Shown: one piece after another, positions 32,475 through 59,782 of the stretch | Position numbering within the stretch: position 1 is the stretch's first letter | Layout: each line of letters begins with the position of its first letter | Assembly: GCA_964399295.1 (NCBI GenBank) | Contig: CAYNQD010000001.1 | Span: forward strand, 203,944-267,943 | Length of the DNA: 64,000 nucleotides | Origin: an uncultured Candidatus Saccharibacteria bacterium | Lineage (GTDB): Bacteria; Patescibacteriota; Minisyncoccia; Phycocordibacterales; UBA918 | Reading direction: 5' to 3' | Notes under the pieces: model-generated | What the model was told of the DNA's origin: nothing | The model's input: the letters and a program-made list of their open reading frames with translations, nothing else | The model's database searches: none | Made by a program: the position numbers and the translations under genes

Positions 32475-32549
32475 GGCCCTATCGTCTAATGGTTAGGACA
32501 GCAGGTTTTCATCCTGCAAATCGGAGTTCGATTCTCCGTAGGGTCACCA
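32475..32549 (+). tRNA. tRNA-Glu (anticodon UUC), 75 nt including CCA
   Basis: Manual fold: 7-bp acceptor stem GGCCCTA/TAGGGTC, anticodon stem CAGG/CCTG with loop TTTTCAT, T-arm CGGAG-TTCGATT-CTCCG. Confidence 0.85.
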
Positions 32550-33976
32550 TAACGCAATTCTTCACTTTCAGCGATGGCTGCAAACGGTTTTTGCAAAGTA
32601 AAGACAAGGGTTTTTCCATCAATCTCCAGGTTCGAGGTAACTGATTTTAGCAAATCACGGTTTTCATTCTCATTAGCCTGTTTTTTGTTGATAGCTATAG
32701 CTTTTACCAGTTCGAGGAATTTTATTGTCTTGTAGTCGTTTTTGAACATTTCTGTTTGTACTTCTGCGAGGTCTTCCTCTCTGCTCAATCTTTCATGCAG
32801 TAATTTTTGGTGGCGGTTGTTAAACGTTTCTTTGTCAATCATGCGGTCGATAAAAGCATCGGTGAGACGAGTGATTCTTTCATCAACTTCAGCCAGTTTA
32901 AGTTTGGCGGACTGGATTAATTCAGCTTGGTGCTGGTAGCGTTCCGCTTGGAGGACGGTAAATTCAGCTTCCAGTTTGTTGATGGAAGTCACCGGCAAAC
33001 TAAGCTGATCAATCATAGCTTGCATCTGTTCATCAACTTTGTCTTCTCGGATACAAGCCCGAGGACAGTCTTTGGTATGACAACGGTAATAGACCTGCCC
33101 TTTCTGGTATTCAGCAATCAGGTTATAGTGGCAATGCAGACATTTGATAGATTTGCGGTAGCGGAACTGGTGTTTTAGACCGGTATTCTTGTTTCGACCG
33201 TGCAAAATATCTTGTACGCGGTCAAACTGGTATTTCTTGATCAATGGCTCATGAATACCCTGGTAGCGTTCACCAGTGGAGACGATATGAATAATACCGA
33301 TATAGAATTCATTGCCGAGCATGGTGGATAAACCGTTTCTGGATACTCGATTGCCCGAGCGGTTTCGCAGTCCCGCCTGATACATTTCCCTGCCTAAAGT
33401 ATAGAGACTGTGTTCACCGGTAGCGTAGAGCTTGAAGGCTTGTTGCACCAGTGGGGCCATTATCGGATCAGGTAGTTTTGGCAGTCCACGACCTTGGTCG
33501 AGGTAACCTAAAGGAGCGCGGAGTGGATAGAGTCCTTGCCGTAATCGGCCTCGAAATCCTTTTTTCACCTCATCCCGCAAGTTGCGGATAAAATCCGCCG
33601 CTACCACGGCCTGGATATCAGCGGCCAGTCGTCCACCGCGTGATTGCAGGTCTAGGCTTTCATGAGCAAAATGTACTTCAATACCTTTGTCGATTAGAGA
33701 ACCAAGATCAGCCCAGTCTTTTAGATTCCTGGCACTCCGGTCTATCTTGTGAATAATTACCCCGCCAGCTTGGCCTTTCACTAAAAGTCCAAGCATTTTG
33801 GTGAAAATAGTACGACCGCGTTTAGCCGCTGTTTCCTTTTCTTCAAACCACTGTTTGATGGTTAGGTTGTGACGACTGGCGTAGTTTTCGATAGCAAAAC
33901 GTTGTTCTGCTAAGGAAGAACCTTGGGTTCCTTGTTTGATGGTTGATACTCGGATATAGGCATAAACATATTTCAT
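32486..33976 (-). CDS. Large serine recombinase (integrase); its 3′ end overlaps the 3′ half of tRNA-Glu
   Basis: N-terminal resolvase catalytic domain YIRVSTIKQ…SLAEQ…HKIDRSARN, recombinase domain, zinc-ribbon Cys cluster, coiled coil. Confidence 0.8.
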   Translation of the reverse strand: MKYVYAYIRVSTIKQGTQGSSLAEQRFAIENYASRHNLTIKQWFEEKETAAKRGRTIFTKMLGLLVKGQAGGVIIHKIDRSARNLKDWADLGSLIDKGIEVHFAHESLDLQSRGGRLAADIQAVVAADFIRNLRDEVKKGFRGRLRQGLYPLRAPLGYLDQGRGLPKLPDPIMAPLVQQAFKLYATGEHSLYTLGREMYQAGLRNRSGNRVSRNGLSTMLGNEFYIGIIHIVSTGERYQGIHEPLIKKYQFDRVQDILHGRNKNTGLKHQFRYRKSIKCLHCHYNLIAEYQKGQVYYRCHTKDCPRACIREDKVDEQMQAMIDQLSLPVTSINKLEAEFTVLQAERYQHQAELIQSAKLKLAEVDERITRLTDAFIDRMIDKETFNNRHQKLLHERLSREEDLAEVQTEMFKNDYKTIKFLELVKAIAINKKQANENENRDLLKSVTSNLEIDGKTLVFTLQKPFAAIAESEELRYGDPTENRTPICRMKTCCPNH

Positions 33977-34197
33977 ACTGCATCAGGTTTAGATTCCTTA
34001 ACTTTATCATTATTATCGGGAAAGTCACGAATCTCATCTAACCTGCCTTCGGCTTCCAGACGCAAGAATATTCGATACAACACCGCTAAATAGGCGCGGA
34101 AATTGACGGTAGCTTCTTTTAATTCTTCATCGCTAGCGTCTGGCATAAAGTGCTGCACAATTTCAGCGATTTCCGGTGGTGGTGGGTATTTTTTCAT
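33973..34197 (-). CDS. Small acidic protein upstream of and overlapping the integrase (candidate recombination directionality factor / accessory protein)
   Basis: 74-aa ORF with a 4-bp ATGA overlap with the integrase start; no recognised family. Confidence 0.3.
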   Translation of the reverse strand: MKKYPPPPEIAEIVQHFMPDASDEELKEATVNFRAYLAVLYRIFLRLEAEGRLDEIRDFPDNNDKVKESKPDAV

Positions 34198-34304
34198 TCA
34201 TACAGTGTGACGGAAGCTGGTTTTCCAGACCAGGGACTAAAGCTTGTTGATACAGCAAACACTCTACCCTCCAGCAAATAAGGGCGGGTCGCTATGCTTT
34301 AGCT

Positions 34305-35609
34305 ATGCAAAAAAACCTGTCCAAAGCAAGAAAAGTAGTGTCTGAGTGTCTGACCAATGGCACCATGATTGAGATGGTTTATGATCGGGAAAACAAACGA
34401 ACCGGCCTGGCTTGTTTGGAAGTGGGAAATATTTCAATTAATCACTCGTACCAATCACCAGCAGGAGAAAAACTAGAGCCGATCCCCGCTACCAATAACC
34501 TCATCAAACACGGAGCGTTGTTATTGGCAGAAAAACCGGTTCCCTATGCATCAGTGTCAAAGCTGATAGCAGACATCCAAGCCTATATCTACCGCTACGT
34601 TGATATCTCTGATCATTTTCGTCAGATCGCCAGCTACTACATCCTCCTCACCTGGGTTTATGATGCTTTTAATGAAATTCCCTATCTGCGCCTACGGGGT
34701 GATTTTGGTTCTGGCAAAACCCGCGCCTTGTTGGTGATTGGATCACTGTGTCACAAAGCTTTTTTTGCCAGTGGTGCTTCCACCGTGTCGCCCATTTTTC
34801 ATACGCTGGATACTTTTCGGGGAACGTTGGTGTTTGATGAAGCGGATTTTCGCTTTAGTGATGAGAAAAATGAATTGGTGAAAATCTTTAATAACGGCAA
34901 CGTGCGCGGTTTTCCGATTCTCCGCACCGCTATCACCATTCAGCGTGAATTTGATCCTCGTGCCTTCCATGTCTATGGCCCCAAGATTGTGGCGATGCGG
35001 AAATCGTTTGCTGATCCTGCTCTGGAAAGTCGGTTTCTAACTGAAGAGATGGGCCAGAGCAGTCTTAGACGGGATATTCCCATAAACCTTCCTGATGTAC
35101 AGCAGGAAGAAGCGTTAGCGCTAAGAAACCAACTGCTGATGTATCGTTTTAAGATGTTACCTACCATCAAAGTCAACGACTCGTTACTTGATTCTTCCCT
35201 TTCACCACGACTGAACCAAATACTTATACCGCTACTTTCAATTATTGATGATGATAGGTTAAGAAATGGTATCCGCGAGGCAGTACGGTCGTTTGATCAA
35301 AAACTGTATGCTGAACGATCAGCGTCAATGGAGGCTGGGGTGTTGGAAATAATCCAGGAGTTATATCAGCATGGCGGTAGTGGGTCTATTCCAGTTTCGC
35401 AAATAGCTTCTATTTTTATTAGTCGATTTTCCACTGAGTATCAACGCCCAATCACAGCCAGAATAGTTGGCGGGGTACTGAGGAAACGCTTGCGTTTAGT
35501 GACATACAAAAGCCACGGGGTTTATGTGCTACCAGTGACGGAGAAACCAAAAGTAGCTGAGCTTTGTATTCGTTACGGGGTAACGGAACGAAATATTGAT
35601 GTGAATTGA
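34305..35609 (+). CDS. P-loop NTPase of the integrated element (primase-C / replication-mobilisation-like)
   Basis: Walker A GDFGSGKT and Walker B LVFDEADF; no housekeeping orthologue recognised. Confidence 0.4.
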   Translation: MQKNLSKARKVVSECLTNGTMIEMVYDRENKRTGLACLEVGNISINHSYQSPAGEKLEPIPATNNLIKHGALLLAEKPVPYASVSKLIADIQAYIYRYVDISDHFRQIASYYILLTWVYDAFNEIPYLRLRGDFGSGKTRALLVIGSLCHKAFFASGASTVSPIFHTLDTFRGTLVFDEADFRFSDEKNELVKIFNNGNVRGFPILRTAITIQREFDPRAFHVYGPKIVAMRKSFADPALESRFLTEEMGQSSLRRDIPINLPDVQQEEALALRNQLLMYRFKMLPTIKVNDSLLDSSLSPRLNQILIPLLSIIDDDRLRNGIREAVRSFDQKLYAERSASMEAGVLEIIQELYQHGGSGSIPVSQIASIFISRFSTEYQRPITARIVGGVLRKRLRLVTYKSHGVYVLPVTEKPKVAELCIRYGVTERNIDVN

Positions 35610-35614
35610 GTGGT

Positions 35615-35750
35615 GGGTAGACTTGGGGACGTGGGGACGAAAAATACGGGTATCAAGTAACTGGTACCCGTTATTTATATAGCTTTATTTATCAACGCCT
35701 TGGCTTAGCTTTGTGTCGCTCACTACGTCCCCACGTCCCCCAGTCTACCC
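35615..35750. repeat. MITE-like unit: 25-bp terminal inverted repeats (1 mismatch) flanking an 86-bp core with an internal hairpin
   Basis: gggtagacttggggacgtggggacg (35615–35639) versus cgtccccacgtcccccagtctaccc (35726–35750). Confidence 0.55.
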
Positions 35751-35784: not shown

Positions 35785-37663
35785 TAGTGTCTGCCCGAAA
35801 ACTCACAATTCAAATAAATAACAATGGATTACGTTTAATTCCGGCAAAGAAGATTAGAAGGAATTTGAAATAAAACGACGTAGATAGGCGGTTTTGTCGT
35901 ATTTCAGGCCACAAAAACCCCAAACTTCGACAATAGTTTGAGAGAATATTCTTTATCACAAACCAACTTCGTTCGAATGGAATCCTCATGCGCGTAGTCC
36001 GAAAGACCCAAATGCAGTTAGGTGAAATTGACGTATCACAAATCAAATTTGATTTGCATTCCCGAGACGATATCCCCAAGGTGTTGCGCGGATTGCAGCA
36101 TCTATATCTGAACGAAACATTACGCGAACAGGTATTTGCGTTGCTGGGAAATGAAATTGCACCCACAGTGAACAAGCAAAATGGCCGTCCCGGCATGACA
36201 CTCTGGCGTATTCTGGTTTTTGGCGTATTGCGTCTGGACTTGAATATCGACTACGACCGTCTTCATGAGCTGAGCAACCAGCATCGAACCTTGCGGCAAA
36301 TGCTCGGCCATGGCTTGTACGATGAAGACAGGAAATATGCTTACCAGACCCTGGTGGATAACGTTGGACTGCTCACGCCGGAATTACTGGACAAACTGAA
36401 CCAGGTCATCGTAGCAGGAGGACATGCGCTGGTAAAAAAAAAGGACGGCGCAGCCCTGCGTGGGCGGTGCGACTCCTTTGTGGTTGAAACCGATGTTCAT
36501 TTTCCAACCGACATCAATTTGTTGTGGGACGCGATGCGCAAGGCGATTACGCTGACCGCGCAATGGAGTGAAAACCAACAACACAGCGATTGGCGCCAAT
36601 ATCGTTACAACCTGCGTCTATTGAAACGAAAGCTGCGTGAGGTGCAGCAAAGCAAGCGTCGCGCCAGCACGGATCAGAAGCCCATTCAGGTTATGCAGGC
36701 GCATCAGCGCTATCTTAATCAGGCGCAATATTACCTGAACAAAATTCAAACCACCTTGCCCGGATTGATTGCGATAACCGCGACCGAACGCCTGTTATGC
36801 ATTGAAATCGAAGGCTACATCCGTCATGCACAGCGTCAAATCAGCCAGATCGAACGCCGCGTAATGCAGAATGAGACCATCTTGCACGAAGAGAAAGTAT
36901 TTTCTGTTTTTGAGCCGCATACCGAATGGATCAGCAAAGGCAAAGCCGGTGTGCCGGTTGAGCTGGGTGTTAAAGTCTGTATTCTGGAAGATCAGCATCA
37001 ATTCATCCTGCATCATCACGTCATGACAAAACAAACCGATGATCGTATCGCGGTTGAAATGGTCACCGAGGCCAGGAAACGTTTTCCCGCCCTCAGTGCC
37101 TGTAGCTTCGATAAAGGCTTTCATTCGCCCGCCAACCAGACCGAACTGGCCCGGCAGCTCGACCAGGTCACGCTGCCTAAAAAGGGCAAGCTGTCCAAAG
37201 CGCGTCAAGCGGTAGAGCAGGCAGAAGAATTCACCAGAGCGCGTCATGCACACTCAGCGGTAGAATCGGCAATCCACGCGCTGGAAGTGCATGGTCTGGA
37301 TAAATGTCCCGATCATGGCATTAACGGTTTTAAACGGTACGTCGCACTGGCCGTTGTCGCCAGAAATATCCGTCGTATCGGAGATATTTTATGGCAGCGT
37401 GAAGAAGCACAAGAACGCAAGGCAAGCGCGCAACGAAATTCAAAGTATCGGCGAACTGCCTGAAACTTTTTCCAAACGAAAAACAGCGTCTGATTGTAAA
37501 CAATCAGCGGTGACTGCTGGGCAAAATTCGGGGTTTTCGTGCAAGATTTCCTGAAAATCACAAATGAACGTGTTTTTGGCGGAATCGTTCCGCTGAATTT
37601 TGTTCAAGGTGATTAAGAATTAGGCAGGCTGGTGGTGAAAATGGGGTTTTCGGGCAGACACTA
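35785..37663 (+). mobile_element. Insertion sequence (~1.88 kb), GC-rich (~50%) relative to the host, with 18-bp terminal IRs TAGTGTCTGCCCGAAAAC
   Basis: IR_L 35785–35802 and IR_R 37646–37663 are perfect reverse complements; a single transposase ORF lies inside. Confidence 0.7.
35988..37463 (+). CDS. DDE transposase of the IS (IS4/IS5-superfamily-like; exact family not assigned)
   Basis: 491-aa ORF filling the IS; DSFVVETDVHFPTD-type first Asp region; codon/GC bias foreign. Confidence 0.6.
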   Translation: MRVVRKTQMQLGEIDVSQIKFDLHSRDDIPKVLRGLQHLYLNETLREQVFALLGNEIAPTVNKQNGRPGMTLWRILVFGVLRLDLNIDYDRLHELSNQHRTLRQMLGHGLYDEDRKYAYQTLVDNVGLLTPELLDKLNQVIVAGGHALVKKKDGAALRGRCDSFVVETDVHFPTDINLLWDAMRKAITLTAQWSENQQHSDWRQYRYNLRLLKRKLREVQQSKRRASTDQKPIQVMQAHQRYLNQAQYYLNKIQTTLPGLIAITATERLLCIEIEGYIRHAQRQISQIERRVMQNETILHEEKVFSVFEPHTEWISKGKAGVPVELGVKVCILEDQHQFILHHHVMTKQTDDRIAVEMVTEARKRFPALSACSFDKGFHSPANQTELARQLDQVTLPKKGKLSKARQAVEQAEEFTRARHAHSAVESAIHALEVHGLDKCPDHGINGFKRYVALAVVARNIRRIGDILWQREEAQERKASAQRNSKYRRTA

Positions 37664-37731: not shown

Positions 37732-38106
37732 ATGAAAAAGAATAATAAAAATAAGTTTGCCCGGTGCTATTTACGCACATACCGGCGCAATTGGGGTTTA
37801 ACCCAAAAAGAATTGGCGACCTTGATTGGTACCGCCAGCAGTGTACAGATTAGTCGTTACGAAAACAGCAAACGCGCCCCCAAATTAGAAGTCGCGCTTG
37901 CCTGCCAAGTCATTTTCGGGGTTCCCCCGTCAACCATGTTTCCAAATGCCTACGCCTTGTCCGAGGAAGAAGTCATGAGGAATATGTGTCAAATGGACTT
38001 GGCGCTCCAAAACACTACCAATCTTTCAGGATTACGCAAGCGAGAACTGTTTAGTATCGCTCTCAGGCGTGTTTTAGACGAATCCCCTTTAGTTAAAAAG
38101 GTATGA
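37732..38106 (+). CDS. XRE-family helix-turn-helix regulator
   Basis: GLTQKELATLIGTASSVQISRYENSKRAP HTH_3-like block. Confidence 0.6.
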   Translation: MKKNNKNKFARCYLRTYRRNWGLTQKELATLIGTASSVQISRYENSKRAPKLEVALACQVIFGVPPSTMFPNAYALSEEEVMRNMCQMDLALQNTTNLSGLRKRELFSIALRRVLDESPLVKKV

Positions 38107-38627: not shown

Positions 38628-38696
38628 TACAAAGCTTTTCCTTGTCATCGAGGAGTACCGAATTCCCGGTATTCCTCACGTGACAAGGAGGAAGTT

Positions 38697-39602: not shown

Positions 39603-39651
39603 AGCAGTTCTTTTTAACCCGGCCTTGGTGGTCGGGTTTTTTATCTCTGAC
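39405..39651 (+). repeat. Direct repeat copy 1 (ardC 3′ end plus terminator), ~95% identical to 42874–43120
   Basis: Alignment by eye of ttggtggcagagcttggcgcatcgtttct…gtcgggttttt. Confidence 0.8.
39617..39645 (+). terminator. Rho-independent terminator of ardC
   Basis: aacccggccttggtggtcgggtttttt. Confidence 0.65.
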
Positions 39652-40806: not shown

Positions 40807-40830
40807 TCAAATAAATAAAGGGGAATTGAA

Positions 40831-41199: not shown

Positions 41200-41462
41200 T
41201 AACAACGAATTACTAGCTATCTTGTTTTTTATTACTGTGCAAGTAACTGTTTATAAGTGATGATGGGATATCCTAAATATTTTTTTGAACAATTGGCATG
41301 AAAATTGCATGGCAATTTGTATGTTGGTACAGGTTGGCTATGGGGCAAATTTTTTCTGTGATTTTTTGGTGTGAGTGCTCTTGCAAAAAAATGTTATTGA
41401 GAGTCACGTAGTTTACACTAACATAATACATGTTATTGTTTATTTACAATAATTAATAATTT

Positions 41463-45897: not shown

Positions 45898-45906
45898 GAG
45901 GAATAG

Positions 45907-54352: not shown

Positions 54353-55099
54353 ATGCCACCAGAGCATCGATTACATGTGCTGGCAATTTCAGCGACGTTG
54401 ATTGCTTATTATTGGTTTATGAAAATTATTTTATCTCCTGGATTTCATTGGTTACCCCAATGGAGTAGTTTCTTCATTATGTTTTTTTCGTCTTATGGTG
54501 TGTTTAGATTTTTTCACTGGACAATAGCATTTCTATTGAATAAAGTGCGATTGCTTAAACAACTTTTTCTTGGGAAATATTACATTGAAGGTACTTGGGT
54601 TGGTTATTATTATGGGGAAGACGGGAAAATATACTATGTAGTGGAAATTATTGACCAGGAAGTAGGTGCTCCACTACATATTAGTGGTCATTCATTCGCG
54701 AATAACAACAAACTCTATGCGACCTGGCGGTCTGTTACAGTAAGTTTCTGGGTGGACTGGCATAAACTAATTTATGCATATAATTGTGTAATTCTTGAAC
54801 CATCTAAGATAATTGATGGAATAACAGTTTTCAGCTTTCATTGTATAAATGAGGATTGTTTCCATACTAAAAAATTTCGGAGTCAAGAATTTATTAAAAT
54901 AAATCTGATTAAAAGCCTGTTTTGTAATAATCCTAGCAGAATTATTGGGTACGCAACTAACACAGATTCAGGAAAACGGCTTGAACTTTATGAGCAAAAA
55001 TTGAGTAACGACGTTTTAATAGCTGAAAACGCTTTACTAGGAGCAAAAACATTCCATGATTCAGTTGTGAAATCACTTAACAAGACTAGTGTTCAATAG
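54353..55099 (+). CDS. AT-rich hypothetical protein with an N-terminal 2-TM region and a globular C-terminal domain
   Basis: Hydrophobic helices in residues 8–70; ~33% GC versus ~47% for its neighbours. Confidence 0.4.
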   Translation: MPPEHRLHVLAISATLIAYYWFMKIILSPGFHWLPQWSSFFIMFFSSYGVFRFFHWTIAFLLNKVRLLKQLFLGKYYIEGTWVGYYYGEDGKIYYVVEIIDQEVGAPLHISGHSFANNNKLYATWRSVTVSFWVDWHKLIYAYNCVILEPSKIIDGITVFSFHCINEDCFHTKKFRSQEFIKINLIKSLFCNNPSRIIGYATNTDSGKRLELYEQKLSNDVLIAENALLGAKTFHDSVVKSLNKTSVQ

Positions 55100-55228: not shown

Positions 55229-57949
55229 TCACCTTTCCTTCCCCTTCTGCAACGACCGCGCAATAACCTCAGAAACCGCCTTTCTTCTAGCAGCCGCATC
55301 ATCTGAGTCAGTAACTTGCTGGACGGTACGGACTTTGTATCCCCGTACCACTTGCTCGGTCGGGGTGAATTTGCCTAGACTATCGAGGAATTCAATGATC
55401 TGTTCAGAGGTTATGTACCGAACCCGTCCTTGATCTTTGAGGTCAAGATTTTCTTCCACGAATTTGGCCAGTTTCTTCACATGCCGTTCTGTTCCGCCAA
55501 TCAATACAACCTCTGAATAACCAGCAGCAAAGCATTTTTCAAGGCCACCCAGTTCCCAATCTTTGGTGGTGGTGACTGAAACTTGGCAAGCCACGCGTAA
55601 TTTATCTCGTACCAGTGATATATCTACCCGTCCAGCGCCATCCAGAATCGTTTCCTCAATAGTGGCACGGAAACCGCGCTCTTCAGCTAATTGTTTGATC
55701 AATTGCTGCAAGTATTTATGTTGTCGTCCACCACGGCCAGGCTCTGGAATATCCTTTGGTGGTGTCGATTTGGCTCTTTTCTTCGGTGGCGTGGTTTCGA
55801 TTGATGGGATCGGTTCAGCAGCAGTTGGTATTTCCGGTTCAACTGGAATCTCTACGGTTTGCGGTGTTTCAGGTGACACTGTTTCTTTCTTGGTTGTCTG
55901 TTTAGCTGGTTTTGGCTCAGGAAAAGCGATTTCTTCAGGAATTAGCGGTGGTTCGCTATATAGCTCCCGATTGCGATCAATTAGAGCTTCATATTGGAAA
56001 GCGGTGATTCTCGGTTGACTCTCCACAAACCCCAAGGGAATAGATACAGCCAGTGCTTTAGCAGTATAGTTTTTGACGTAACAGGCAAATTCGGTTTGCT
56101 CCTTCCCTTTTCTCATACCAAGCAAAAAATCAGCGTCAGTACGGTATTCTGAATCTAAGATACCGGCATCTTTGGCACTCAAGCCACCAGCAAACTTGAT
56201 GGTGGTGGAAGCTAATACACTAGCCCTGAGACCACCAGACAGCTGATCGAGATTTTGATGCGCAAATACTAAGCCTACCCGGTATTTTCTAGCTTGGTTT
56301 AGTAGATGTGAGATATTGTCGTCAAAATAGTCTTGGGCTTCATCGATATAAACAAAGGCGGAGCGTCGCTTATGTGGTGGCATGGCGGCACGCTGAATGG
56401 AAGCCTGGGCAATTAAAGCAATAAAGAAACGTCCAAAAATGGCTGCACCATCTTGTCCCAGCAAATCCTTGGCCGTATTGATAAGAATGATCTTGCCTTG
56501 ATTTAATAATTCAAAGATATCAATTCTGTTTCGAGTATGAGAAAACATCCGTTCCAAGGATGAATTGGATAGTACTCCCCACAGACGGGTTAATATCTGC
56601 TTCTTGGTTTCACTAAACTTTCTATCAAAGAATTGGGTAGCAAAGAAGCTACGAGCGGTGCCGGTCAGTTTCTCCATATAGGGCCGGAACCGTTCACTGT
56701 TTTCCATTAATTCTCGTAGCGTATGGATATTGGCGTCCGGTATTTCCAAAAGTAGCCGAGCTAAATAACGGAAAATCAGTCCTTGGCGTTGGGTTAATTC
56801 GGCTCCGAGTAGCGCCCCAAAGAAGTATTCATACAGTTCAATGGTGGCATTCAGTATCTTTTCTTTATCTACCGGCGCATAACCACTTAACCGATCTTGG
56901 TTAAAGTCAAACATATTGAGACAAACCGGATACTCAATATCATTCGGATCAACTATCACCAAGCGTTCAGCCAGGGCTGGATCGCTAAAGTATCCCAGTT
57001 TAACTATGGTGTTGATCAAATCACCCTGGCTATCAATCACCACAATCGAACGACCATCTTCTTGCGAGCGCACAATGTCATGATGAATCAGAAACTGCAT
57101 TAATTGGGTTTTGCCGTGACCGGTACCACCGACGATATGAGTATGTTCAAAGCGGGCTGGGAAAGGAATGGCAAACGGTAGCTGGCGGTATAGCAGTGAC
57201 TGGAATGGCGTGTCACCCAAATAAGTATCAACCAATACCGCTGGTTCATTAATTCGGCTTTCGGTGGGTAGGATTACCTTCGGTGGCCGGTTGAATTTGG
57301 CGTCTGGTGGATGGCCGGAAGCTCTTAAGATATTCTGATCAAAGACTTCCCGCTGTCTTCCAAAAACCTGGGCTTCAACAACGTCTGCGTCATAGAAAGT
57401 CACCATGAGGCGCTGGATGACTTCCGGCAGGTTGTCGCACAAATCATAGGCATGTGCCTTCGGAAACACCACTGAATCATCATCAGCCAACCCGTTTTCA
57501 TCAACATCAATAAAGGCTGATTCGGGAAAATATTCAAGCATCCCTTTAAAAAGCCAGACCAGCTTTTCCCGCCAAATTGATAGCAAACGATCCGGTGAAT
57601 TGAGAAAGTGTTTATGGCGTTTCAGGGTGGTACGGAGTCGTATCCCCTCTTCAATGGTGAGGTTTTTGATCTCGGTGTCATTGGGTAAATCTCCAATCAT
57701 CGAATCTTCATACAGCAATTGTTCGATGGTGTAATACAAAGCGCCACCGAGTGGTACTCCAGGCAGTGTGCCGTGCCGTTCGCAAGCATCAGCAATTATA
57801 TCCACGATAAAACTGCTGATTTCATCTTGGTTATTAAGGGGGTGATGTATACGCTGTGTGCGTTTAAGCTCATGCAGAAGAGCCAGCGTTTCTGCCTCTT
57901 CTTTCTTTTTCGGTGAAGGCAGAATCCAATTAAGAAAATTAGATGACAC
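55229..57949 (-). CDS. FtsK/HerA/TraG-superfamily P-loop ATPase (906 aa) with an N-terminal domain, a Pro/Glu-rich linker and a C-terminal possibly nuclease-like domain
   Basis: Walker A VGGTGHGKT, Walker B FVYIDEAQDY, T4CP/TraG-D_C-like AHQNLDQL; C-terminal block DGAGRVDISL…ACQVS. Confidence 0.55.
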   Translation of the reverse strand: MSSNFLNWILPSPKKKEEAETLALLHELKRTQRIHHPLNNQDEISSFIVDIIADACERHGTLPGVPLGGALYYTIEQLLYEDSMIGDLPNDTEIKNLTIEEGIRLRTTLKRHKHFLNSPDRLLSIWREKLVWLFKGMLEYFPESAFIDVDENGLADDDSVVFPKAHAYDLCDNLPEVIQRLMVTFYDADVVEAQVFGRQREVFDQNILRASGHPPDAKFNRPPKVILPTESRINEPAVLVDTYLGDTPFQSLLYRQLPFAIPFPARFEHTHIVGGTGHGKTQLMQFLIHHDIVRSQEDGRSIVVIDSQGDLINTIVKLGYFSDPALAERLVIVDPNDIEYPVCLNMFDFNQDRLSGYAPVDKEKILNATIELYEYFFGALLGAELTQRQGLIFRYLARLLLEIPDANIHTLRELMENSERFRPYMEKLTGTARSFFATQFFDRKFSETKKQILTRLWGVLSNSSLERMFSHTRNRIDIFELLNQGKIILINTAKDLLGQDGAAIFGRFFIALIAQASIQRAAMPPHKRRSAFVYIDEAQDYFDDNISHLLNQARKYRVGLVFAHQNLDQLSGGLRASVLASTTIKFAGGLSAKDAGILDSEYRTDADFLLGMRKGKEQTEFACYVKNYTAKALAVSIPLGFVESQPRITAFQYEALIDRNRELYSEPPLIPEEIAFPEPKPAKQTTKKETVSPETPQTVEIPVEPEIPTAAEPIPSIETTPPKKRAKSTPPKDIPEPGRGGRQHKYLQQLIKQLAEERGFRATIEETILDGAGRVDISLVRDKLRVACQVSVTTTKDWELGGLEKCFAAGYSEVVLIGGTERHVKKLAKFVEENLDLKDQGRVRYITSEQIIEFLDSLGKFTPTEQVVRGYKVRTVQQVTDSDDAAARRKAVSEVIARSLQKGKER

Positions 57950-58330
57950 TTAATTTATCTCAATAACTTCCTCTCCCCCGAAAGTACTGGCAGCACCAAG
58001 TACATTATGAAAGGTGTGGGCCGCTTCTTTGATTTGTTCTTCAACCGCGATCATTTCCACGATATCTTTGCATTCTACCGTCTTTCCCTTTTCCAGATCG
58101 TTGACGGAGATAGTGAGATTAATCATTTTGAAAGCCACACGAGAAGCCAGCCCGATAAGACCACTGCCTGGATCAACAATCTTGGCTCGTTCATACAGCA
58201 TAGTATCGCCAAGCTTGTATTTCTTGATGTTGGTTTTTTCTTCATCAGTTAGCTCCGCTCTAACTGACACCGTGAAGATTATCTTGCCCATCATGCCGGT
58301 CTTTTGATCCCGACGCAACAACAGCTTCAT
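57950..58330 (-). CDS. 126-aa hypothetical protein sandwiched between the two ATPases
   Basis: Stop and start abut the neighbours (58330/58401 and 57950/57949); no known domain. Confidence 0.4.
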   Translation of the reverse strand: MKLLLRRDQKTGMMGKIIFTVSVRAELTDEEKTNIKKYKLGDTMLYERAKIVDPGSGLIGLASRVAFKMINLTISVNDLEKGKTVECKDIVEMIAVEEQIKEAAHTFHNVLGAASTFGGEEVIEIN

Positions 58331-58400
58331 CGCTACCTCCTTGAATGTATGAGATAAGTAGCTAAAGTATATATATTTTATGGTAAGTCGGGAAGAAAAT

Positions 58401-59594
58401 TTAACAATTGAAACTACCTAAATCATGCGGATGGATTGTGGTGGCACTAAATGGTCGGCTGGGTGCGCCGTCTATCATGAGTTTTAGGTAGATTCCACGG
58501 TTTGGTAGATTGATAAGGTCGGTGGTGTTGAAAACTGGTTGGAATTCCCTAGCTATGAGTGGCGCATCCTCTGGCCCCAGTCGAAATGAAATGAGAGTGC
58601 CAGCATTGGCTAATACGGCGTGTCGCACGTCTGATTCCAGTTGATACAGGTGCTGATTGGCTAAAACTAAGCCGATACGGTATTTACGCAGTTCTGAGAC
58701 CATATTGGCGATGGAAAGTGTGGTGAAGCTCTGGAATTCATCAATATAGATCAGGAAATTACGTCTTTCAGTTTCTGGTATATCTCCACGGCTCATAGCC
58801 GCTAGACCTAAGGTAGTGACTAAAATCGCTCCAAACAATGAAGCACTGTCTTCTCCTAAGCGACCTTTGGCTAAATTCACAATCAGTATCTTCCCTTCGT
58901 CCATAATGGTACGAAATTGCAGATTGACCGGAGCAGTGGTGAAAATCCGTCGTAGCTTTGGATCGGCCAGAAATGCCCCAACTTTGTTTTGTATGGGTGC
59001 GATCATTTCCTGACGGTAGCGGGGGTTATAGGCAGCGAATTCTTCTGTCCAGAAATGACGGACTTGTTCGTTTTTAACTTTGGCAATGACAGTCTGACGA
59101 TAGGTTTTATCAGCAATCATCCGCAGGATATCGGGCAGTTTAGCGTCACCAGCTTCAATCAAGGCGTAGAGGGTATTTCTGAGTATATGCTCCATGCGTA
59201 CACCCCAAGCTTCAGTCCAGAGTTTTTTGAAGGCTTCCATCAGGCCAGAGACGGCTAGTGGTATACGGGATGAGTGTACCTGGCGGAGTGGGTTATACCC
59301 GTATGGTTGGTGGATATCAGGGACGTTGATATAGACCAGATTATTTCTTCGCCTTTCTGGAACGTTGGCTACCAGTCGTTCGGCTAAGTCACCATGCGGA
59401 TCAATGACGCAAAGACCGCGACCGCTGTGGATGTCTTGCAGAGCTAGGGTTTCTAAAAGAGTAGTCTTCCCTGCTCCAGTACGGCCAATTACATAGATAT
59501 GGGAAAAGCGATCATCGAGTTTGATGCCGAAGGTGCGATGGGGATGGCGGGCGTTGGTGTGGGCGAGGTATGAAATGGATTGATTTGAATACAC
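58401..59594 (-). CDS. FtsK/HerA/TraG-superfamily P-loop ATPase (397 aa; a bare ATPase domain with no TM segment)
   Basis: Walker A IGRTGAGKT, VIDPHGD, Walker B LIYIDEFQSF, LANQHLYQL; paralogous to the core of the 906-aa protein. Confidence 0.55.
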   Translation of the reverse strand: MYSNQSISYLAHTNARHPHRTFGIKLDDRFSHIYVIGRTGAGKTTLLETLALQDIHSGRGLCVIDPHGDLAERLVANVPERRRNNLVYINVPDIHQPYGYNPLRQVHSSRIPLAVSGLMEAFKKLWTEAWGVRMEHILRNTLYALIEAGDAKLPDILRMIADKTYRQTVIAKVKNEQVRHFWTEEFAAYNPRYRQEMIAPIQNKVGAFLADPKLRRIFTTAPVNLQFRTIMDEGKILIVNLAKGRLGEDSASLFGAILVTTLGLAAMSRGDIPETERRNFLIYIDEFQSFTTLSIANMVSELRKYRIGLVLANQHLYQLESDVRHAVLANAGTLISFRLGPEDAPLIAREFQPVFNTTDLINLPNRGIYLKLMIDGAPSRPFSATTIHPHDLGSFNC

Positions 59595-59782
59595 CTAGGC
59601 ATAGTAAATTATGCACATATTGAAAACATGATGTGGATAGTTGCTGAAATATCTTACATCTCTTCACATTCACGATTAAAACATTAAATGTTAGTAAGAA
59701 GTTTTCAATGGGAGACATTTCTGTAAATAGTATCAATAATCCGTTGAGAACAAAATATTTAAATAAAAGAGACAGTGCTATT

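What the first reader, a model, noticed from the sequence alone, without database searches (positions are those of the whole stretch)
32475..59700. ~27-kb mosaic accessory island inserted at tRNA-Glu
Upstream of 32.4 kb the genes are conserved housekeeping genes at ~40% GC. Downstream of the tRNA the content switches to two serine recombinases, ArdC, three different IS-type transposases, secreted proteins, an RTX giant, a DNase and the ATPase trio, with patchy GC (33–55%). A recombinase gene reads into the tRNA 3′ end, which is the classic signature of tRNA-targeted integration. The right boundary is not resolved; the cdd/CYTH/DegT cluster at 59.8 kb looks host-like.
Basis: partly seen in the sequence, partly recalled or inferred. 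Interest (0 to 1): 0.65.

Follow-up and report, generated by a model that had tools for sequence, protein, structure and literature searches.

The report
Serine-integrase mobile element in tRNA-Glu
The island is real: a 31.7-kb mobile element that a large serine recombinase inserted into the 3' end of tRNA-Glu in a tiny Patescibacteria genome, unusual because its attachment site lies inside the recombinase's own gene and the element carries a second integrase that targets comM in other hosts.

Summary
The island is confirmed, but its right edge was misplaced. The host is a Paceibacteria (CPR) bacterium, and FAD-oxidase→tRNA-Glu synteny holds in 47 relatives.

**Left junction.** A 496-aa large serine recombinase (LSR1, 32486-33976, minus strand) reads antisense through the tRNA. 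Its closest homologues (72-85% identity) are 516-517 aa. They diverge from it exactly at the tRNA 3' end.

**Attachment site.** Their attP (CGTTATGGT-GA-ACCATACCG) sits inside the LSR1 ORF. Integration therefore swaps the enzyme's C-terminal tail.

**Right junction.** The severed, frameshifted tail lies 226 nt beyond the window end, next to a tRNA-trailer-like hairpin. The element spans 32,546 to about 64,225 (31.7 kb). The cdd/DegT/GFO cluster is cargo, not host DNA.

**Backbone.** LSR1, a 74-aa protein, a P-loop protein, HTH, a 174-aa protein, ArdC, LSR2 and two T4CP/HerA-like ATPases with a 126-aa protein recur at 59-92% identity elsewhere. The named sources include Nitrotoga and Nitrosomonas.

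**Second integrase.** In L089 and L179, LSR2 has integrated the element into comM, and its attP also lies inside its own ORF.

**Decay.** The island shows ISNCY (TSD ACTT), IS1595, an IS701 remnant and an ArdC 3' duplication.

Serine integrases at tRNA genes are rarely reported. I rate this a new variant of a known kind.

The parts
32475..32549 (+). tRNA-Glu(UUC), intact; serves as attB. The host supplies positions up to the crossover. The element supplies discriminator A + CCA (32546-32549).
   Evidence: ARAGORN; Rfam RF00005, 63.2 bits. The same FAD-oxidase→tRNA-Glu synteny occurs in 47 relatives.
32525..32556 (.). attL. It consists of the tRNA T-arm/acceptor arm, a crossover within TCAC (32544-32547, probably TC at 32544-32545), and the element P' arm ACCATAACG.
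   Evidence: Four-way alignment of attL, attP (L089, L090) and attR. Crossover coordinates; family-wide junctions.
32486..33976 (-). LSR1, a large serine recombinase in its integrated form (496 aa). The last 20 aa (DPTENRTPICRMKTCCPNH and the preceding G) are encoded by antisense tRNA-Glu. It retains every invariant residue of the 25-sequence family alignment, including R9-V10-S11 of the RVST motif, where the catalytic serine of serine recombinases lies (my assignment).
   Evidence: Pfam Resolvase 1.9e-24, Recombinase 1.8e-11, Zn_ribbon_recom 20.6 bits (below the 25.3 cutoff). Homologue tails; alignment A1.
33973..34197 (-). 74-aa backbone ORF whose stop overlaps the LSR1 start by 4 nt. Candidate directionality or regulatory factor (inferred).
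   Evidence: Conserved at 69-92% in L089, L090 and L091 at the same position. No family match.
34305..35609 (+). 434-aa P-loop protein (Walker A GSGKT, Walker B-like FDEAD). Candidate replication or initiator protein.
   Evidence: 5223 homologues; the 120 listed are 65-100% identical to it, and some are named DUF3631 by UniRef. The AF2 model is poor (pLDDT 65) and no PDB fold match is significant. No Pfam hit.
35615..35750 (.). Conserved intergenic block: 25-nt inverted repeats with GGGGAC direct repeats around a hairpin and an AT-rich stretch. Candidate origin (inferred).
   Evidence: the repeat finder I3; conserved in L089, L090 and Nitrotoga L175.
35786..37662 (+). ISNCY-family insertion sequence (491-aa transposase at 35988-37463) with 18-nt terminal inverted repeats and a 4-bp target duplication, ACTT. 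It is inserted into the backbone intergenic region.
   Evidence: NF033593, 537 bits; inverted repeat I22; flanks. The uninterrupted intergenic region is seen in L089, L090 and L091.
37732..39602 (+). Backbone operon: Xre-type HTH (37732-38106), 174-aa protein (38103-38627) and ArdC anti-restriction protein (38697-39602).
   Evidence: Pfam HTH_3, ArdcN and MPTase-PolyVal. 59-87% identity to L089, L090 and L091 in the same order.
39642..43112 (+). Cargo 1a: three ORFs of unknown function (40189-40806, 40831-41199, 41463-42494). It is bracketed by a 237-nt duplication of the ArdC 3' end plus terminator (39405-39641 and 42874-43112, 96% identical).
   Evidence: the repeat finder D1 and D7. Pfam finds the ArdC C-terminal fragment in 42661-43071.
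43352..43740 (-). Frameshifted remnant of an IS701-family transposase gene.
   Evidence: NF049999, 55-56 bits, below cutoff, on two fragments; stops visible in the translation.
44314..45362 (+). IS1595-family insertion sequence (transposase 44389-45360) with imperfect 24-nt inverted repeats (20 of 24). No target duplication.
   Evidence: NF033547, 180.6 bits; inverted repeats and flanks.
45424..51809 (.). Cargo 1b. It holds a 157-aa ORF and a 1129-aa RTX/VWD/Calx-beta protein (45907-49296). It also holds a 198-aa protein with a hydrophobic N-terminus (49375-49971), a weak ChaN-like protein (50100-50840, minus strand) and Endonuclease I (50919-51809, minus strand).
   Evidence: Pfam; NCBIfam RTX hits far below cutoff.
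52095..54146 (+). LSR2, the second large serine recombinase, in its native un-recombined form (683 aa with two C-terminal Xre HTH domains). Its own attP lies inside the ORF at about 53640-53665, with the crossover near CA at 53652-53653.
   Evidence: Pfam. 89-92% identity to LSR2 of L089, which diverges after GNLATDA into antisense comM. The severed HTH part abuts the comM 3' half in L179.
54353..55099 (+). 248-aa ORF with hydrophobic segments. A variable slot: a 550-aa protein occupies this position in L179.
   Evidence: No family match; gene table for L179.
55229..59594 (-). Backbone 'ATPase trio': a 397-aa and a 906-aa HerA/FtsK/T4CP-like P-loop ATPase with a 126-aa ORF between them. Candidate DNA-translocation module (inferred).
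   Evidence: Pfam TrwB_AAD_bind, DUF87 and T4SS-DNA_transf. NCBIfam TraD, VirB4 and CedD hits are all far below cutoff. PHROG 5156; PADLOC mad8, 61-69 bits. 72-92% identity in L089 and L090.
59783..64000 (.). Cargo 2. It holds cytidine deaminase (59783-60220), a 176-aa ORF (60201-60731; 'CYTH' not verified), a DegT aminotransferase (60791-62077) and a GFO/IDH/MocA oxidoreductase (62074-63156), all on the minus strand. An SDR gene (63308 to beyond 64000, plus strand) follows. The element continues about 225 nt past the window end to attR.
   Evidence: Pfam. Logan contig L083 equals window 50791-64000 plus 3869 nt. attR lies at L083 3644-3645. Non-host tetranucleotide composition, r = 0.81.

Best explanation
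Window 32,546 to the window end, plus about 225 nt beyond it, is one integrated copy (31.7 kb) of a widespread two-integrase mobile element.

**How it integrated (shown at sequence level).** LSR1 recombined the element's attP with the 3' end of the host tRNA-Glu gene.
- attP is a 9-bp imperfect inverted repeat around a non-palindromic GA. It lies about 40 codons before the stop of the LSR1 gene itself.
- The crossover falls within TCAC, at the last acceptor-stem positions.
- The element supplies the discriminator base, CCA and a new trailer, so the tRNA stays intact.
- LSR1 loses its conserved native tail (37 aa after the junction in L089) and gains 18 aa encoded by antisense tRNA.
- The orphaned tail ends up at the far end of the element (attR), where it has since acquired frameshifts.

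**Second integrase (shown).** LSR2 is in its un-recombined state here. In other hosts LSR2 inserts the same backbone into comM. Its attP is also inside its own ORF, and integration cuts off its two HTH domains.

**Backbone roles (inferred).** The P-loop protein plus the iteron-like inverted repeat may serve replication. The Xre HTH may regulate the element. ArdC may act against restriction. Two T4CP/HerA-like ATPases may move DNA.

**Cargo and decay.** Cargo sits in two variable slots, after ArdC and between the LSR1 attP and the ATPases. Here it comprises an RTX-type protein, proteins with hydrophobic N-termini, Endonuclease I, cytidine deaminase and sugar-modifying enzymes. After integration the copy began to decay through IS insertions.
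For: 1. **Host and site.** The FAD-oxidase gene has 41-81%-identical homologues in 80 MAG contigs, almost all labelled Patescibacteria/CPR. tRNA-Glu follows it on the same strand in 47 of them.
2. **Left junction.** LSR1's nearest homologues are 516-517 aa and end ...RYGEPYRATSRTF..KIFKLIHDKEPP... The window protein matches them up to RYG, then continues as antisense tRNA.
3. **Reciprocal junctions.** attL matches attP to the left of GTGA and the tRNA to the right. attR (L083 3637-3745) matches attP to the right of GTGA, apart from substitutions and two 2-nt gaps in the alignment. To the left it carries ACAACGCATAG plus a hairpin. That flank resembles the empty-site trailers of relatives L008 (ACAACGCAC plus hairpin) and L003.
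4. **Independent second case.** L091 carries a 71%-identical LSR1 with the same backbone. It is fused to tRNA-Glu next to a 76%-identical FAD-oxidase.
5. **Family-wide pattern.** Of 83 family loci, most keep a native tail whose DNA mimics a tRNA 3' end (TGGTG...TCGAAC). Fused members sit on ARAGORN-called tRNA-Glu(UUC), tRNA-Glu(CUC) and tRNA-Ala(UGC). Three further loci (L112, L117, L118) have tRNA-3'-end-like tails in the same frame but no tRNA call.
6. **Backbone synteny.** The backbone is 59-92% identical in L089, L090 and L091, and its gene order recurs in Nitrotoga L175.
7. **LSR2 targets comM.** L089 holds comM-N joined to the LSR2 N-part. L179 holds the LSR2 HTH part joined to comM-C. 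Splicing the two comM halves gives one continuous Mg_chelatase match, profile positions 133-206.
8. **Composition.** Every island segment is compositionally non-host.
9. **Hotspot.** Ten of 39 relatives with enough downstream sequence carry other LSR lineages (about 25% identity) ending in or beside tRNA-Glu. Six of those inspected read through it in the same frame as LSR1.
Against: - **attR and flank are outside the window.** They are known only from Logan contigs that match the window at 100% identity. Only about 110 nt of presumed host trailer is visible before a 1104-aa helicase of unknown origin. The match to relatives' trailers is just 8 nt plus a hairpin.
- **No independent bridge over the left junction.** In the Logan assemblies of this population the host contigs stop at 32444 and the island contigs start at 32693. 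Only the source assembly bridges the gap.
- **No excised forms seen.** No empty site from the same species was recovered, and no circular form. L089 is not circular.
- **Complications near the right end.** A second, intact-looking LSR tail (R2) lies beyond the helicase. A variant junction in L084 is also unexplained.
- **No experimental support.** No relaxase or mating-pore genes were found, so the transfer route is unknown. All backbone functions other than the recombinases and ArdC are inferred from weak similarities. Recombinase activity, the crossover dinucleotide and any role of the tail swap are untested.
Confidence: 0.85

Rival explanations
1. One reading: a roughly 27-kb island ending near 59.7 kb, with the cdd/DegT/GFO cluster belonging to the host chromosome.
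For: The cluster has lower GC (33.9%) than the rest of the island, and it encodes metabolic rather than mobility functions.
Against: - The severed LSR1 tail (attR) lies beyond the cluster.
- The slot between the LSR1 attP and the 397-aa ATPase is a cargo slot in L089 (CBASS, ABC transporter) and in L090 (nucleotide enzymes).
- No relative has these genes within 10 kb of tRNA-Glu.
- Tetranucleotide correlation to the host is 0.81, against 0.90-0.97 for host chunks.
Confidence: 0.03
2. Assembly chimera: a metagenome assembler joined a Paceibacteria contig to a proteobacterial mobile element through a conserved tRNA sequence.
For: - Backbone proteins are 69-86% identical to proteins that their sources label Nitrosomonas or Nitrotoga.
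- The cargo (RTX protein, Endonuclease I) looks Gram-negative in style.
- Independent Logan contigs break on both sides of the junction, at 32444 and 32693.
Against: - The tRNA is of the Paceibacteria type. The recombinase ORF switches from family sequence to tRNA exactly at the attP core, and the reciprocal half lies 31.7 kb away in the right orientation. A chimera would not create both halves.
- L091 shows the same family at the same site beside a Paceibacteria FAD-oxidase in an unrelated sample.
- Ten of 39 relatives carry LSR genes in the same position.
- The source contig is 594 kb.
Confidence: 0.04
3. Two or more independent elements lie side by side or nested. An LSR1 element (left) and a separate LSR2 element (right, with the ATPases) would each have their own ends, rather than forming one element.
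For: - Two integrases are present.
- An ArdC 3' duplication and IS debris lie between the two halves.
- A further LSR tail (R2) and a helicase beyond attR suggest accretion at this site.
- Tandem accretion is documented for serine-recombinase islands at ssrA in Dehalococcoides (PMC3146451).
Against: - LSR1, the 74-aa protein, the P-loop protein, HTH, the 174-aa protein, ArdC, LSR2 and the ATPase trio all occur together on the single 22.2-kb contig L089+L178. All but LSR2 were also seen within the 21.5 kb of L090 examined.
- LSR2 is un-recombined here, with its full 683 aa and both halves of its attP contiguous. It therefore has no junctions of its own in the window.
- The ArdC repeat copies are 96% identical. 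This fits a past exchange between related elements rather than a boundary.
Confidence: 0.08
4. A prophage, or a domesticated recombinase that is a stable, vertically inherited feature of this lineage and is linked to the tRNA.
For: - Serine recombinases abut tRNA-Glu in about a quarter of relatives.
- Large serine recombinases are typical of phages.
Against: - No capsid, terminase, tail or lysis genes are present. PHROG hits are only to unknown-function ATPase families.
- IMG/VR holds no relative, and there is no near match in plasmid records.
- The relatives' recombinases are only about 25% identical to LSR1, while the neighbouring FAD-oxidase is up to about 80% identical. Their downstream content also differs. 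This indicates repeated independent insertions, not inheritance.
Confidence: 0.02

Closest known systems
Dehalococcoides ssrA genomic islands (ssrA-GIs / vcr-GI; McMurdie et al. 2011, PMC3146451)
   Same: - Mobilizable islands integrated at the 3' end of a tRNA-like gene by a CcrB-like large serine recombinase.
- The recombinase gene lies on the reverse strand directly beside attL.
- There is a conserved integration module plus variable cargo.
- The site is a hotspot with signs of accretion, and a second serine recombinase sits in the module.
   Different: - The target there is tmRNA, with a 20-bp direct repeat. Here it is a true tRNA gene, with only 4 nt shared between the junctions.
- I found no mention there of attP lying inside the integrase ORF.
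- The second recombinase there is a small PinR-like partner (DsiA). Here it is a full alternative integrase with its own target (comM).
- The backbone genes and the host phylum differ.
Classical tRNA-gene genomic islands and prophages with tyrosine integrases (Islander-type; PMC4383910)
   Same: - Integration at the 3' end of a tRNA gene.
- The integrase gene lies next to the tRNA, and the element restores the tRNA 3' end.
- Cargo-rich, compositionally foreign DNA.
   Different: - The integrase here is a large serine recombinase, not a tyrosine recombinase.
- No displaced tRNA fragment or long direct repeat marks the far end.
[quoted passage not shown] PMC7192596 found only 14 of 297 S-Int elements at t(m)RNA genes and asked for experimental proof.
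SSV1-type archaeal integrases (attP within the int gene; reviewed in PMC8371274, which I found by search but did not read; details from my own knowledge)
   Same: attP lies inside the integrase ORF and the target is a tRNA gene. Integration therefore changes the integrase gene product.
   Different: - That is a tyrosine recombinase, and integration splits int into two large non-functional parts.
- Here LSR1 loses only a tail of about 37 aa and keeps all catalytic and DNA-binding domains.
- LSR2 loses its C-terminal HTH domains.
Characterised large serine recombinase systems (phiC31, Bxb1, A118; SCCmec CcrAB; Tn4451 TnpX, Tn5397 TndX)
   Same: - Domain architecture: Resolvase, Recombinase and a zinc ribbon.
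- Short att sites with imperfect inverted arms around a non-palindromic central dinucleotide.
- No long homology between attP and attB.
   Different: - Known targets are protein-coding genes or intergenic sites, and attP is normally outside the integrase ORF (my own knowledge).
- The large LSR catalogue of Durrant et al. (PMC10083194) does not contain the word tRNA.
- Here attP mimics a tRNA 3' end and is read as protein.
phiRSM-group small serine recombinases (cited in PMC7192596 as site-specific integrases among the small serine recombinases; the tRNA-Ser target is from my own knowledge)
   Same: A serine-family recombinase integrating an element at a tRNA gene 3' end.
   Different: - Those are small resolvase-like enzymes of filamentous phages, without the Recombinase and zinc-ribbon domains.
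- The element type is unrelated.
Integration-dependent immunity of mycobacteriophages BPs/Brujita
   Same: attP lies inside a coding sequence. The integrated and free states therefore produce proteins with different C-termini, which works as a state switch.
   Different: - There attP lies in the repressor gene and the integrase is a tyrosine recombinase with a degradation tag.
- Here the split genes are the serine integrases themselves, and any switch function is only hypothesised.

Membership tests
Large serine recombinase (LSR / S-Int) integrative element | An integrase with an N-terminal Resolvase catalytic domain, the catalytic serine, and a Recombinase domain | tested here: met
   - LSR1: Resolvase 1.9e-24, Recombinase 1.8e-11.
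- LSR2: Resolvase 4e-32, Recombinase 1.9e-19.
- R9, V10, S11 and T12 of LSR1 are invariant in the 25-sequence alignment. S11 as the catalytic serine is my assignment.
Large serine recombinase (LSR / S-Int) integrative element | Zinc-ribbon / coiled-coil C-terminal domain | tested here: inconclusive
   - Zn_ribbon_recom scores 20.6 bits for LSR1, below the Pfam cutoff of 25.3.
- Several homologues carry the precomputed PF13408 domain.
- The Cys residues C279, C282, C299 and C304 are invariant.
Large serine recombinase (LSR / S-Int) integrative element | Short att sites with inverted arms around a non-palindromic central dinucleotide, and reciprocal attL/attR hybrids without long repeats | tested here: met
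   - attP is CGTTATGGT-GA-ACCATACCG, with 8 of 9 arm positions complementary.
- attL, attR and attP exchange arms at GTGA.
- No tRNA-fragment repeat exists in the window.
Large serine recombinase (LSR / S-Int) integrative element | Demonstrated recombination activity and directionality control | not testable with these tools
   This needs an in vitro or in vivo assay. The 74-aa ORF coupled to LSR1 is only a candidate directionality factor.
Islander-type tRNA genomic island (tyrosine integrase) | A tyrosine recombinase (Phage_integrase) encoded on the island | tested here: not met
   No Phage_integrase hit on any of the 30 ORFs searched between about 27.4 and 63.2 kb. Both recombinases belong to the serine family.
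Islander-type tRNA genomic island (tyrosine integrase) | An intact tDNA at one end and a displaced tDNA fragment (direct repeat) at the other | tested here: not met
   The intact tRNA is present. The far end shares only TCAC with it.
Integrative and conjugative element (ICE) | A relaxase | tested here: not met
   No relaxase family hit in Pfam on the ORFs searched. NCBIfam, PHROGs and PADLOC were run only on subsets of the ORFs and also gave none. An unrecognised relaxase among the unassigned ORFs cannot be excluded.
Integrative and conjugative element (ICE) | A type IV coupling protein | tested here: inconclusive
   - The 397-aa and 906-aa ATPases hit TrwB_AAD_bind, T4SS-DNA_transf and TraD models. 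All NCBIfam scores (16-44 bits) are far below the cutoffs (366-800).
- Source annotations call homologues 'type IV secretory system conjugative DNA transfer family protein'.
Integrative and conjugative element (ICE) | VirB4 ATPase and mating-pore genes | tested here: not met
   Only 25-26-bit VirB4 hits against a cutoff of 643. No other T4SS component was found.
Dehalococcoides-type ssrA-GI integration module | A DsiB/DsiA pair with RecF-like, ParB-like and Mom-like genes next to attL at ssrA | tested here: not met
   - The module here is LSR1, 74-aa, P-loop, HTH, 174-aa and ArdC.
- The target is tRNA-Glu, not tmRNA.
- The resemblance is in logic, not homology. Direct sequence comparison with DsiB was not done.
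Prophage | Virion structural, packaging and lysis genes | tested here: not met
   - PHROGs gave only unknown-function ATPase families. The weak terminase-ATPase similarity reflects the P-loop alone.
- No relatives in IMG/VR.
The two-integrase element family defined here (L089, L090, L091, L175, L179) | Syntenic backbone: LSR1, 74-aa, P-loop protein, HTH, about 175-aa protein, ArdC ... LSR2 ... 906-aa ATPase, 126-aa, 397-aa ATPase | tested here: met
   All ten backbone genes are present in the same order. Identity to L089, L090 and L091 is 59-92%.

The most novel reading that the evidence does not exclude
The element belongs to a very large, cross-phylum family of two-integrase episomes in which both attachment sites are written inside the integrase coding sequences.

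- LSR1's attP doubles as a tRNA-3'-end mimic and as the codons G-x-P-x-R...R-T. LSR2's attP sits before its two HTH domains.
- Each integration event therefore remodels the integrase that made it. LSR1 swaps a conserved tail for a tRNA-encoded peptide. LSR2 is severed from its DNA-binding or regulatory HTH module.
- This would give the element a built-in record of whether and where it is integrated. That record could set directionality or expression.
- The choice between comM and tRNA targets would let the same backbone colonise both Proteobacteria and ultra-small Patescibacteria. Close backbone similarity to copies labelled as nitrifiers might then reflect transfer between an epibiont and its bacterial host.
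Probability: 0.3. Interest if true: 0.85.

Novelty: new variant of a known kind. Interest (0 to 1): 0.7.

Why it matters
1. **Evidence for a doubted target class.** tRNA genes have been regarded as tyrosine-integrase territory. [quoted passage not shown] It later lists only 14 computational cases needing proof (PMC7192596). This locus, with its family of thousands of homologues, gives base-resolution attP/attB/attL/attR sets for a large serine recombinase that targets tRNA 3' ends. That makes the question directly testable.
2. **New programmable-looking integrases.** Large serine recombinases are sought as genome-engineering tools. A clade whose attP mimics tRNA ends, with members on different tRNAs, offers natural specificity variants.
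3. **A possible state switch.** An attP inside the integrase ORF, seen twice in one element, is a compact design. It changes the enzyme on integration and may be a new form of directionality control.
4. **Mobile DNA in a minimal genome.** Mobile elements are not often described in Patescibacteria. Here one takes up about 5% of a 594-kb contig. Its backbone is 69-86% identical to copies labelled Nitrosomonas or Nitrotoga, and tRNA-Glu is a recurrent landing site for at least three recombinase lineages. This bears on how these reduced epibionts acquire genes, and perhaps on who their hosts are.

Tried and rejected
None exists in the window at seed 12. This is explained by serine-recombinase chemistry.
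- **GC profile as a boundary marker.** Uninformative. Tetranucleotide composition works instead.
- **Near-identical DNA in PLSDB plasmids.** No match.
- **IMG/VR scan with LSR1.** No relative.
- **Exact-match look-ups of LSR1 (window ORF and P0001).** Not on record, so the source contig beyond 64 kb could not be fetched.
- **Independent contigs across attL.** Logan host contigs stop at 32444 and island contigs start at 32693. No independent bridge was found.
- **Circularity of the 22.2-kb contig L089+L178.** There is no terminal overlap. It turned out to be integrated in comM.
- **Function of the 434-aa protein.** There were no Pfam, NCBIfam, PHROG, PADLOC or PDB-sequence hits. The AF2 model has pLDDT 65, and the best PDB fold matches (MCM, ORC, Cdc6, winged helix) are not significant at E ≥ 0.07. 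I use them only as a weak hint.
- **ATPase trio as a defence system.** PADLOC gave only weak mad8 and HerA similarity. Its conservation in the backbone argues against cargo.
- **Origin of the helicase and of L084 1-1820.** No homologues in any fetched locus.
- **Phage JC1 as a precedent for serine integrase at a tRNA.** It integrates in rimO, so it is not a precedent.

Full report
**1. What is in the window**

ARAGORN finds one tRNA, tRNA-Glu(UUC), at 32475-32549 on the plus strand. Rfam scores it 63.2 bits over the full model. A 496-aa ORF on the minus strand (32486-33976) has Resolvase and Recombinase domains. It runs antisense through 64 nt of the tRNA, and its stop codon lies inside the tRNA.

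- a second serine recombinase at 52095-54146;
- ArdC at 38697-39602;
- a complete ISNCY element, with 18-nt inverted repeats and NF033593 at 537 bits;
- an IS1595 element and frameshifted IS701 fragments;
- a 1129-aa RTX/VWD/Calx-beta protein and Endonuclease I;
- two T4CP/HerA-like ATPases with a 126-aa ORF between them.

Two details were not borne out. GC content does not separate island from host: 41.7% against 42.3%, with ranges of 29-53% and 30-51% in 500-nt windows. Tetranucleotide composition does separate them: r = 0.58-0.83 to host for every island segment, against 0.90-0.97 for host chunks. The 'CYTH' label for 60201-60731 found no support.

**2. Host and insertion site**

The FAD-linked oxidase gene just upstream of the tRNA (30428-32386) has 41-81%-identical homologues in 80 genome contigs. 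Almost all are labelled Patescibacteria, Paceibacteria, Kaiserbacteria or a related CPR group. The genes between about 20.3 and 32.4 kb have homologues in syntenic order in the closest of these contigs. tRNA-Glu follows the oxidase gene on the same strand in 47 of the loci.

None of the island's genes occurs downstream of tRNA-Glu in those relatives. The exceptions are recombinases and one homologue of the 434-aa protein in L070.

Many relatives have an 'empty' site: the tRNA is followed directly by a terminator hairpin. However, 10 of the 39 relatives with at least 1.7 kb of downstream sequence carry a large serine recombinase gene on the opposite strand, ending in or beside the tRNA. Eight more contigs break within 1.7 kb of it. 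These recombinases are only about 25% identical to LSR1. They fall into at least two reading-frame classes (…CDPTENRTP… and …RRIELRF…). This tRNA is a recurrent landing site for several serine-recombinase lineages in this clade.

**3. The junctions**

*Left junction.* The search listed 5300 homologues of LSR1. The closest (72-85% identity) are 516-517 aa and share a native C-terminus: …RYGEPYRATSRTF…KIFKLIHDKEPPDD…. The window protein follows them up to RYG, then reads DPTENRTPICRMKTCCPNH*, which is antisense tRNA-Glu. Five other homologues among the listed 120 also end in antisense-tRNA-like peptides.

*attP.* At the DNA level, native family members carry attP inside the ORF: CGTTATGGT-GA-ACCATACCG in L089. 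This is a 9-bp inverted repeat (8 of 9 positions) around a non-palindromic GA.

*Four-way comparison.*
- attL (window, minus strand) is …GCGTTATGGT-GA-CCCTACGGAGAATCGAAC….
- It equals attP to the left of GTGA and the tRNA to the right.
- The reciprocal half is not in the window. It lies on Logan contig L083, which matches window 50791-64000 at 100% identity and continues for 3869 nt.
- At L083 3637-3745 the sequence …TATGCGTT-GTGA-ACCATACCGAGCCACATCGAAATTTTAAAAACG… matches attP and the native tail DNA of L089 to the right of GTGA. It differs there by substitutions and two 2-nt gaps in the alignment, and it reads MRCEPYRATSKF*…KMIFKLIHGKEPLN*.
- To the left it diverges into ACAACGCATAG plus a perfect 10-bp-stem hairpin. 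That resembles the trailers of the empty sites in relatives L008 (ACAACGCACAAT plus hairpin) and L003.

*Coordinates.* The crossover lies within TCAC (window 32544-32547). By the symmetry of attP it is probably at TC, 32544-32545. The corresponding point at attR is window-equivalent 64,225-64,226. The element is therefore about 31.7 kb and runs 226 nt past the window end.

The element supplies the discriminator A and CCA. This fits the observation that this tRNA has an encoded CCA while most empty-site relatives do not.

**4. Independent confirmation and the rival 'chimera'**

L091, from an unrelated ENA assembly, carries a 71%-identical LSR1 with the same neighbours (74-aa, P-loop protein, HTH, 177-aa, ArdC). 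It is fused in the same way to a Paceibacteria-type tRNA-Glu, next to a 76%-identical FAD-oxidase. Together with the reciprocal junctions, this makes a misassembly through the tRNA very unlikely.

The caveat is that in Logan assemblies of this population the host contigs stop at 32444 and the island contigs start at 32693. Only the 594-kb source contig bridges the left junction.

**5. The element family**

*Backbone.* Comparison with L089 (a 22.2-kb Logan contig), L090 (a 102-kb JGI contig) and L091 defines a backbone conserved at 59-92% amino-acid identity. The gene tables of L175 (Nitrotoga sp. HW29) and L179 show the same order. The order is: LSR1, 74-aa ORF (its stop overlapping the LSR1 start), about 440-aa P-loop protein, Xre HTH, about 175-aa protein, ArdC, [cargo slot 1], LSR2, [small slot], about 906-aa ATPase, 126-aa, 397-aa ATPase, [cargo slot 2], back to the LSR1 tail and attP.

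*Cargo.* Cargo in other copies is typical accessory and defence material:
- an N6/N4 methyltransferase with an EcoO109I-type endonuclease, SMODS/patatin genes, and ABC transporter genes in L089;
- type I restriction-modification with SMODS/SLATT genes, and nucleotide enzymes, in L090;
- type I restriction-modification genes, an OLD-family ATPase with a UvrD-family helicase, and arsenic-resistance genes (ArsA, ArsD) in L175.

In the window, slot 1 holds proteins of unknown function, some with hydrophobic N-termini, the RTX protein and Endonuclease I. Slot 2 holds cytidine deaminase, a DegT aminotransferase, a GFO/IDH/MocA oxidoreductase and an SDR.

*Host labels.* Source labels on close backbone homologues include Nitrosomonas, Nitrotoga, Gammaproteobacteria, Acidimicrobiales, Acidobacteria and Brocadiia. 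These are the depositors' labels, and many come from MAGs.

*Candidate origin and operator.* The intergenic block between the P-loop gene and the HTH gene is conserved from the window to Nitrotoga. It has 25-nt inverted repeats containing GGGGAC repeats, a hairpin and an AT-rich stretch (35615-35750). I take it as a candidate origin. A GCTTCTG…CAGAAGC palindrome before the HTH gene is likewise conserved and is a candidate operator. Both readings are inferences.

**6. The second integrase**

LSR2 is a backbone gene, 89-92% identical in L089. In the window it is 683 aa with two C-terminal Xre-type HTH domains.

- In L089 it matches the window protein up to …GNLATDA, then reads QGFIAAMSWKRAGNPA*. 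The opposite strand there encodes …ARFQLIAAMNP, which matches Mg_chelatase profile positions 133-158.
- In L179 the severed LSR2 C-terminal part is a 148-aa HTH protein starting at the junction and reading inward. It abuts the 3' half of comM, CPCGYLG…, which matches Mg_chelatase plus Mg_chelatase_C.
- Splicing the two comM halves gives one continuous Mg_chelatase match over profile positions 133-206.

LSR2 therefore integrates this backbone into comM between AAMNP and CPCG. Its attP (window about 53640-53665, crossover near CA at 53652-53653) also lies inside its own ORF.

This explains two things: why the element has two serine recombinases, and probably why most family members keep a native LSR1 tail although they sit on long contigs. 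The second point was shown only for L089. The window copy is in the complementary state. It is integrated by LSR1, with LSR2 intact.

**7. A tRNA-mimicking attP**

Across 83 family loci at 48-85% identity, the DNA encoding the conserved motif G-x-P-x-R-(D)-x-x-(P)-R-T reads TGGTG…CC…TCGAAC. That is the antisense of CCA, the acceptor strand and the T-loop GTTCGA, with about 6 extra nucleotides.

Members fused to ARAGORN-called tRNAs sit on tRNA-Glu(UUC), tRNA-Glu(CUC) and tRNA-Ala(UGC). Three further loci (L112, L117, L118) have tRNA-3'-end-like tails but no tRNA call. All are joined at the 3' terminus and in the same frame, …GNRTP…. The attachment site and the protein tail are thus one sequence under two constraints.

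**8. Mosaic state and decay**

- ISNCY (35786-37662) interrupts the conserved backbone intergenic region, with a 4-bp duplication ACTT.
- IS1595 (44314-45362) has no duplication and adjoins IS701 debris.
- A 237-nt duplication of the ArdC 3' end plus terminator (39405-39641 and 42874-43112, 96% identical) brackets cargo 1a. I read it as a scar of exchange between two related elements.
- The orphaned LSR1 tail at attR is frameshifted.
- In another sample, L084, an IS3-type element replaces window 46961-59548. That removes LSR2, Endonuclease I and the ATPases.
- LSR1 keeps all invariant residues, and both att cores are intact. Excision is conceivable, but it would regenerate a truncated LSR1.

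**9. How it most likely works**

*Shown at sequence level.* Site-specific recombination by a large serine recombinase joined an attP inside its own gene to the tRNA-Glu 3' end. The tRNA is preserved. An alternative comM route runs through LSR2.

*Inferred.* The P-loop protein and the inverted-repeat block may support episomal replication. ArdC and the two T4CP/HerA-like ATPases suggest transfer as DNA into new cells. No relaxase or mating-pore genes were found, so the element is not an ICE by the usual criteria and its transfer route is unknown.

*Hypothesis only.* The C-terminal changes, LSR1's tail swap and LSR2's loss of HTH domains, may act as a state-dependent switch.

**10. Comparison with the literature**

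- Mageeney et al. found 14 of 297 S-Int elements at t(m)RNA genes. [quoted passage not shown]
- The closest described system is the Dehalococcoides ssrA-GI family. There a CcrB-like serine recombinase gene sits beside attL at the tmRNA gene, with 20-bp repeats and tandem accretion (PMC3146451).
- The large LSR catalogue of Durrant et al. does not mention tRNA.
- An attP inside the integrase ORF at a tRNA target is known for SSV1-type tyrosine integrases of archaea. PMC8371274 surfaced in the search, but I did not read it. The details are from my own knowledge.
- I found no description of this two-integrase family or of an LSR attP embedded in its ORF. The library searched is incomplete.

I therefore rate the finding a new variant of a known kind.

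**11. Unexplained**

- Beyond attR lie a 1104-aa DEAD/ResIII helicase and then, at the common end of three contigs from three samples, an intact-looking LSR tail (IFKLIHGKEPPENSSDQKSA*). This could be a remnant of an older tandem element or the end of another full LSR gene.
- L084 carries an LSR 3' end joined at the same GA to a sequence that is neither tRNA nor native tail.
- The function of the 434-aa protein remains open. The AF2 model has pLDDT 65 and no fold match is significant.

Noticed in passing
window 35615-35750 (also L089 about 5550-5770, L090 about 8130-8360, L175 about 8110-8340): An intergenic block conserved from the Paceibacteria copy to the Nitrotoga copy. It has 25-nt inverted repeats with tandem GGGGAC motifs flanking a hairpin and an AT-rich stretch, next to the P-loop protein gene. 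It looks like an origin, but this is untested.
   Followed up: partly
window 37698-37721: The palindrome GCTTCTG-N9-CAGAAGC lies just upstream of the Xre HTH gene and is conserved in L089, L090, L091 and L175. It is a candidate operator. The ISNCY insertion separated it from the upstream block.
   Followed up: partly
window 39405-39641 and 42874-43112: A 237-nt direct repeat (96% identical) of the ArdC 3' end plus its terminator brackets three ORFs of unknown function. It is probably a scar of recombination between two related elements at the backbone/cargo boundary.
   Followed up: partly
L083 1-3525 (window-equivalent about 64.3-67.9 kb): A 1104-aa DEAD/ResIII helicase with no homologue in any fetched locus lies here. 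It is followed by an intact-looking LSR tail end at the point where contigs from three samples all stop. This may be older tandem accretion at the same tRNA.
   Followed up: partly
L084 (SRR16797981) 1-1820 and 7616-8741: A population variant. An IS3-type element replaces window 46961-59548. A second LSR 3' end (93% identical to LSR1 over 59 nt) is joined at the GA core to unrelated DNA, and the helicase is truncated to 342 aa.
   Followed up: partly
L033, L025, L043, L034, L047, L006 (about 45-65 nt downstream of tRNA-Glu): In several relatives' empty sites, the terminator hairpin after tRNA-Glu is followed by an inverted copy of the tRNA acceptor 3' strand (up to about 20 nt of the tRNA 3' end in L047). 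This forms a long palindrome that includes the tRNA 3' end. Its meaning is unknown.
   Followed up: no
L117 / L118 about 11440-11833: A family LSR whose ORF continues for about 130 codons through several successive tRNA-3'-end-like motifs (GNRT, GRIRT, NRT, GIRT). This may reflect stacked tRNA fragments or a tRNA array at the junction.
   Followed up: no
window 49375-49971: The 198-aa cargo protein has a hydrophobic N-terminus and ends in …SEPTILPMFALALFLISLVRLKHYK. This resembles a PEP-CTERM sorting signal, a feature of Gram-negative bacteria, and so hints that the cargo was acquired in a diderm host. NCBIfam gave no hit.
   Followed up: partly
Its stop overlaps the start of the cytidine deaminase gene.
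   Followed up: yes
window 32444 and 32693; L003, L009, L010, L031, L032, L044: Independent assemblies repeatedly break within about 250 nt of tRNA-Glu. This fits strain-level variation or repeated LSR 3' ends at this site.
   Followed up: partly
window 17587-17683: A 32-nt inverted repeat (91% complementary, 33-nt spacer) lies in the host part of the window, inside or between ORFs at 17246-17725. I did not examine it.
   Followed up: no
window 28696-30843 versus 30428-32386: The mechanical 715-aa PIF1-helicase ORF (TTG start) overlaps the FAD-oxidase gene by about 400 nt. Gene calls on identical Logan contigs give a 566-aa protein, so the long ORF is an over-extension.
   Followed up: yes
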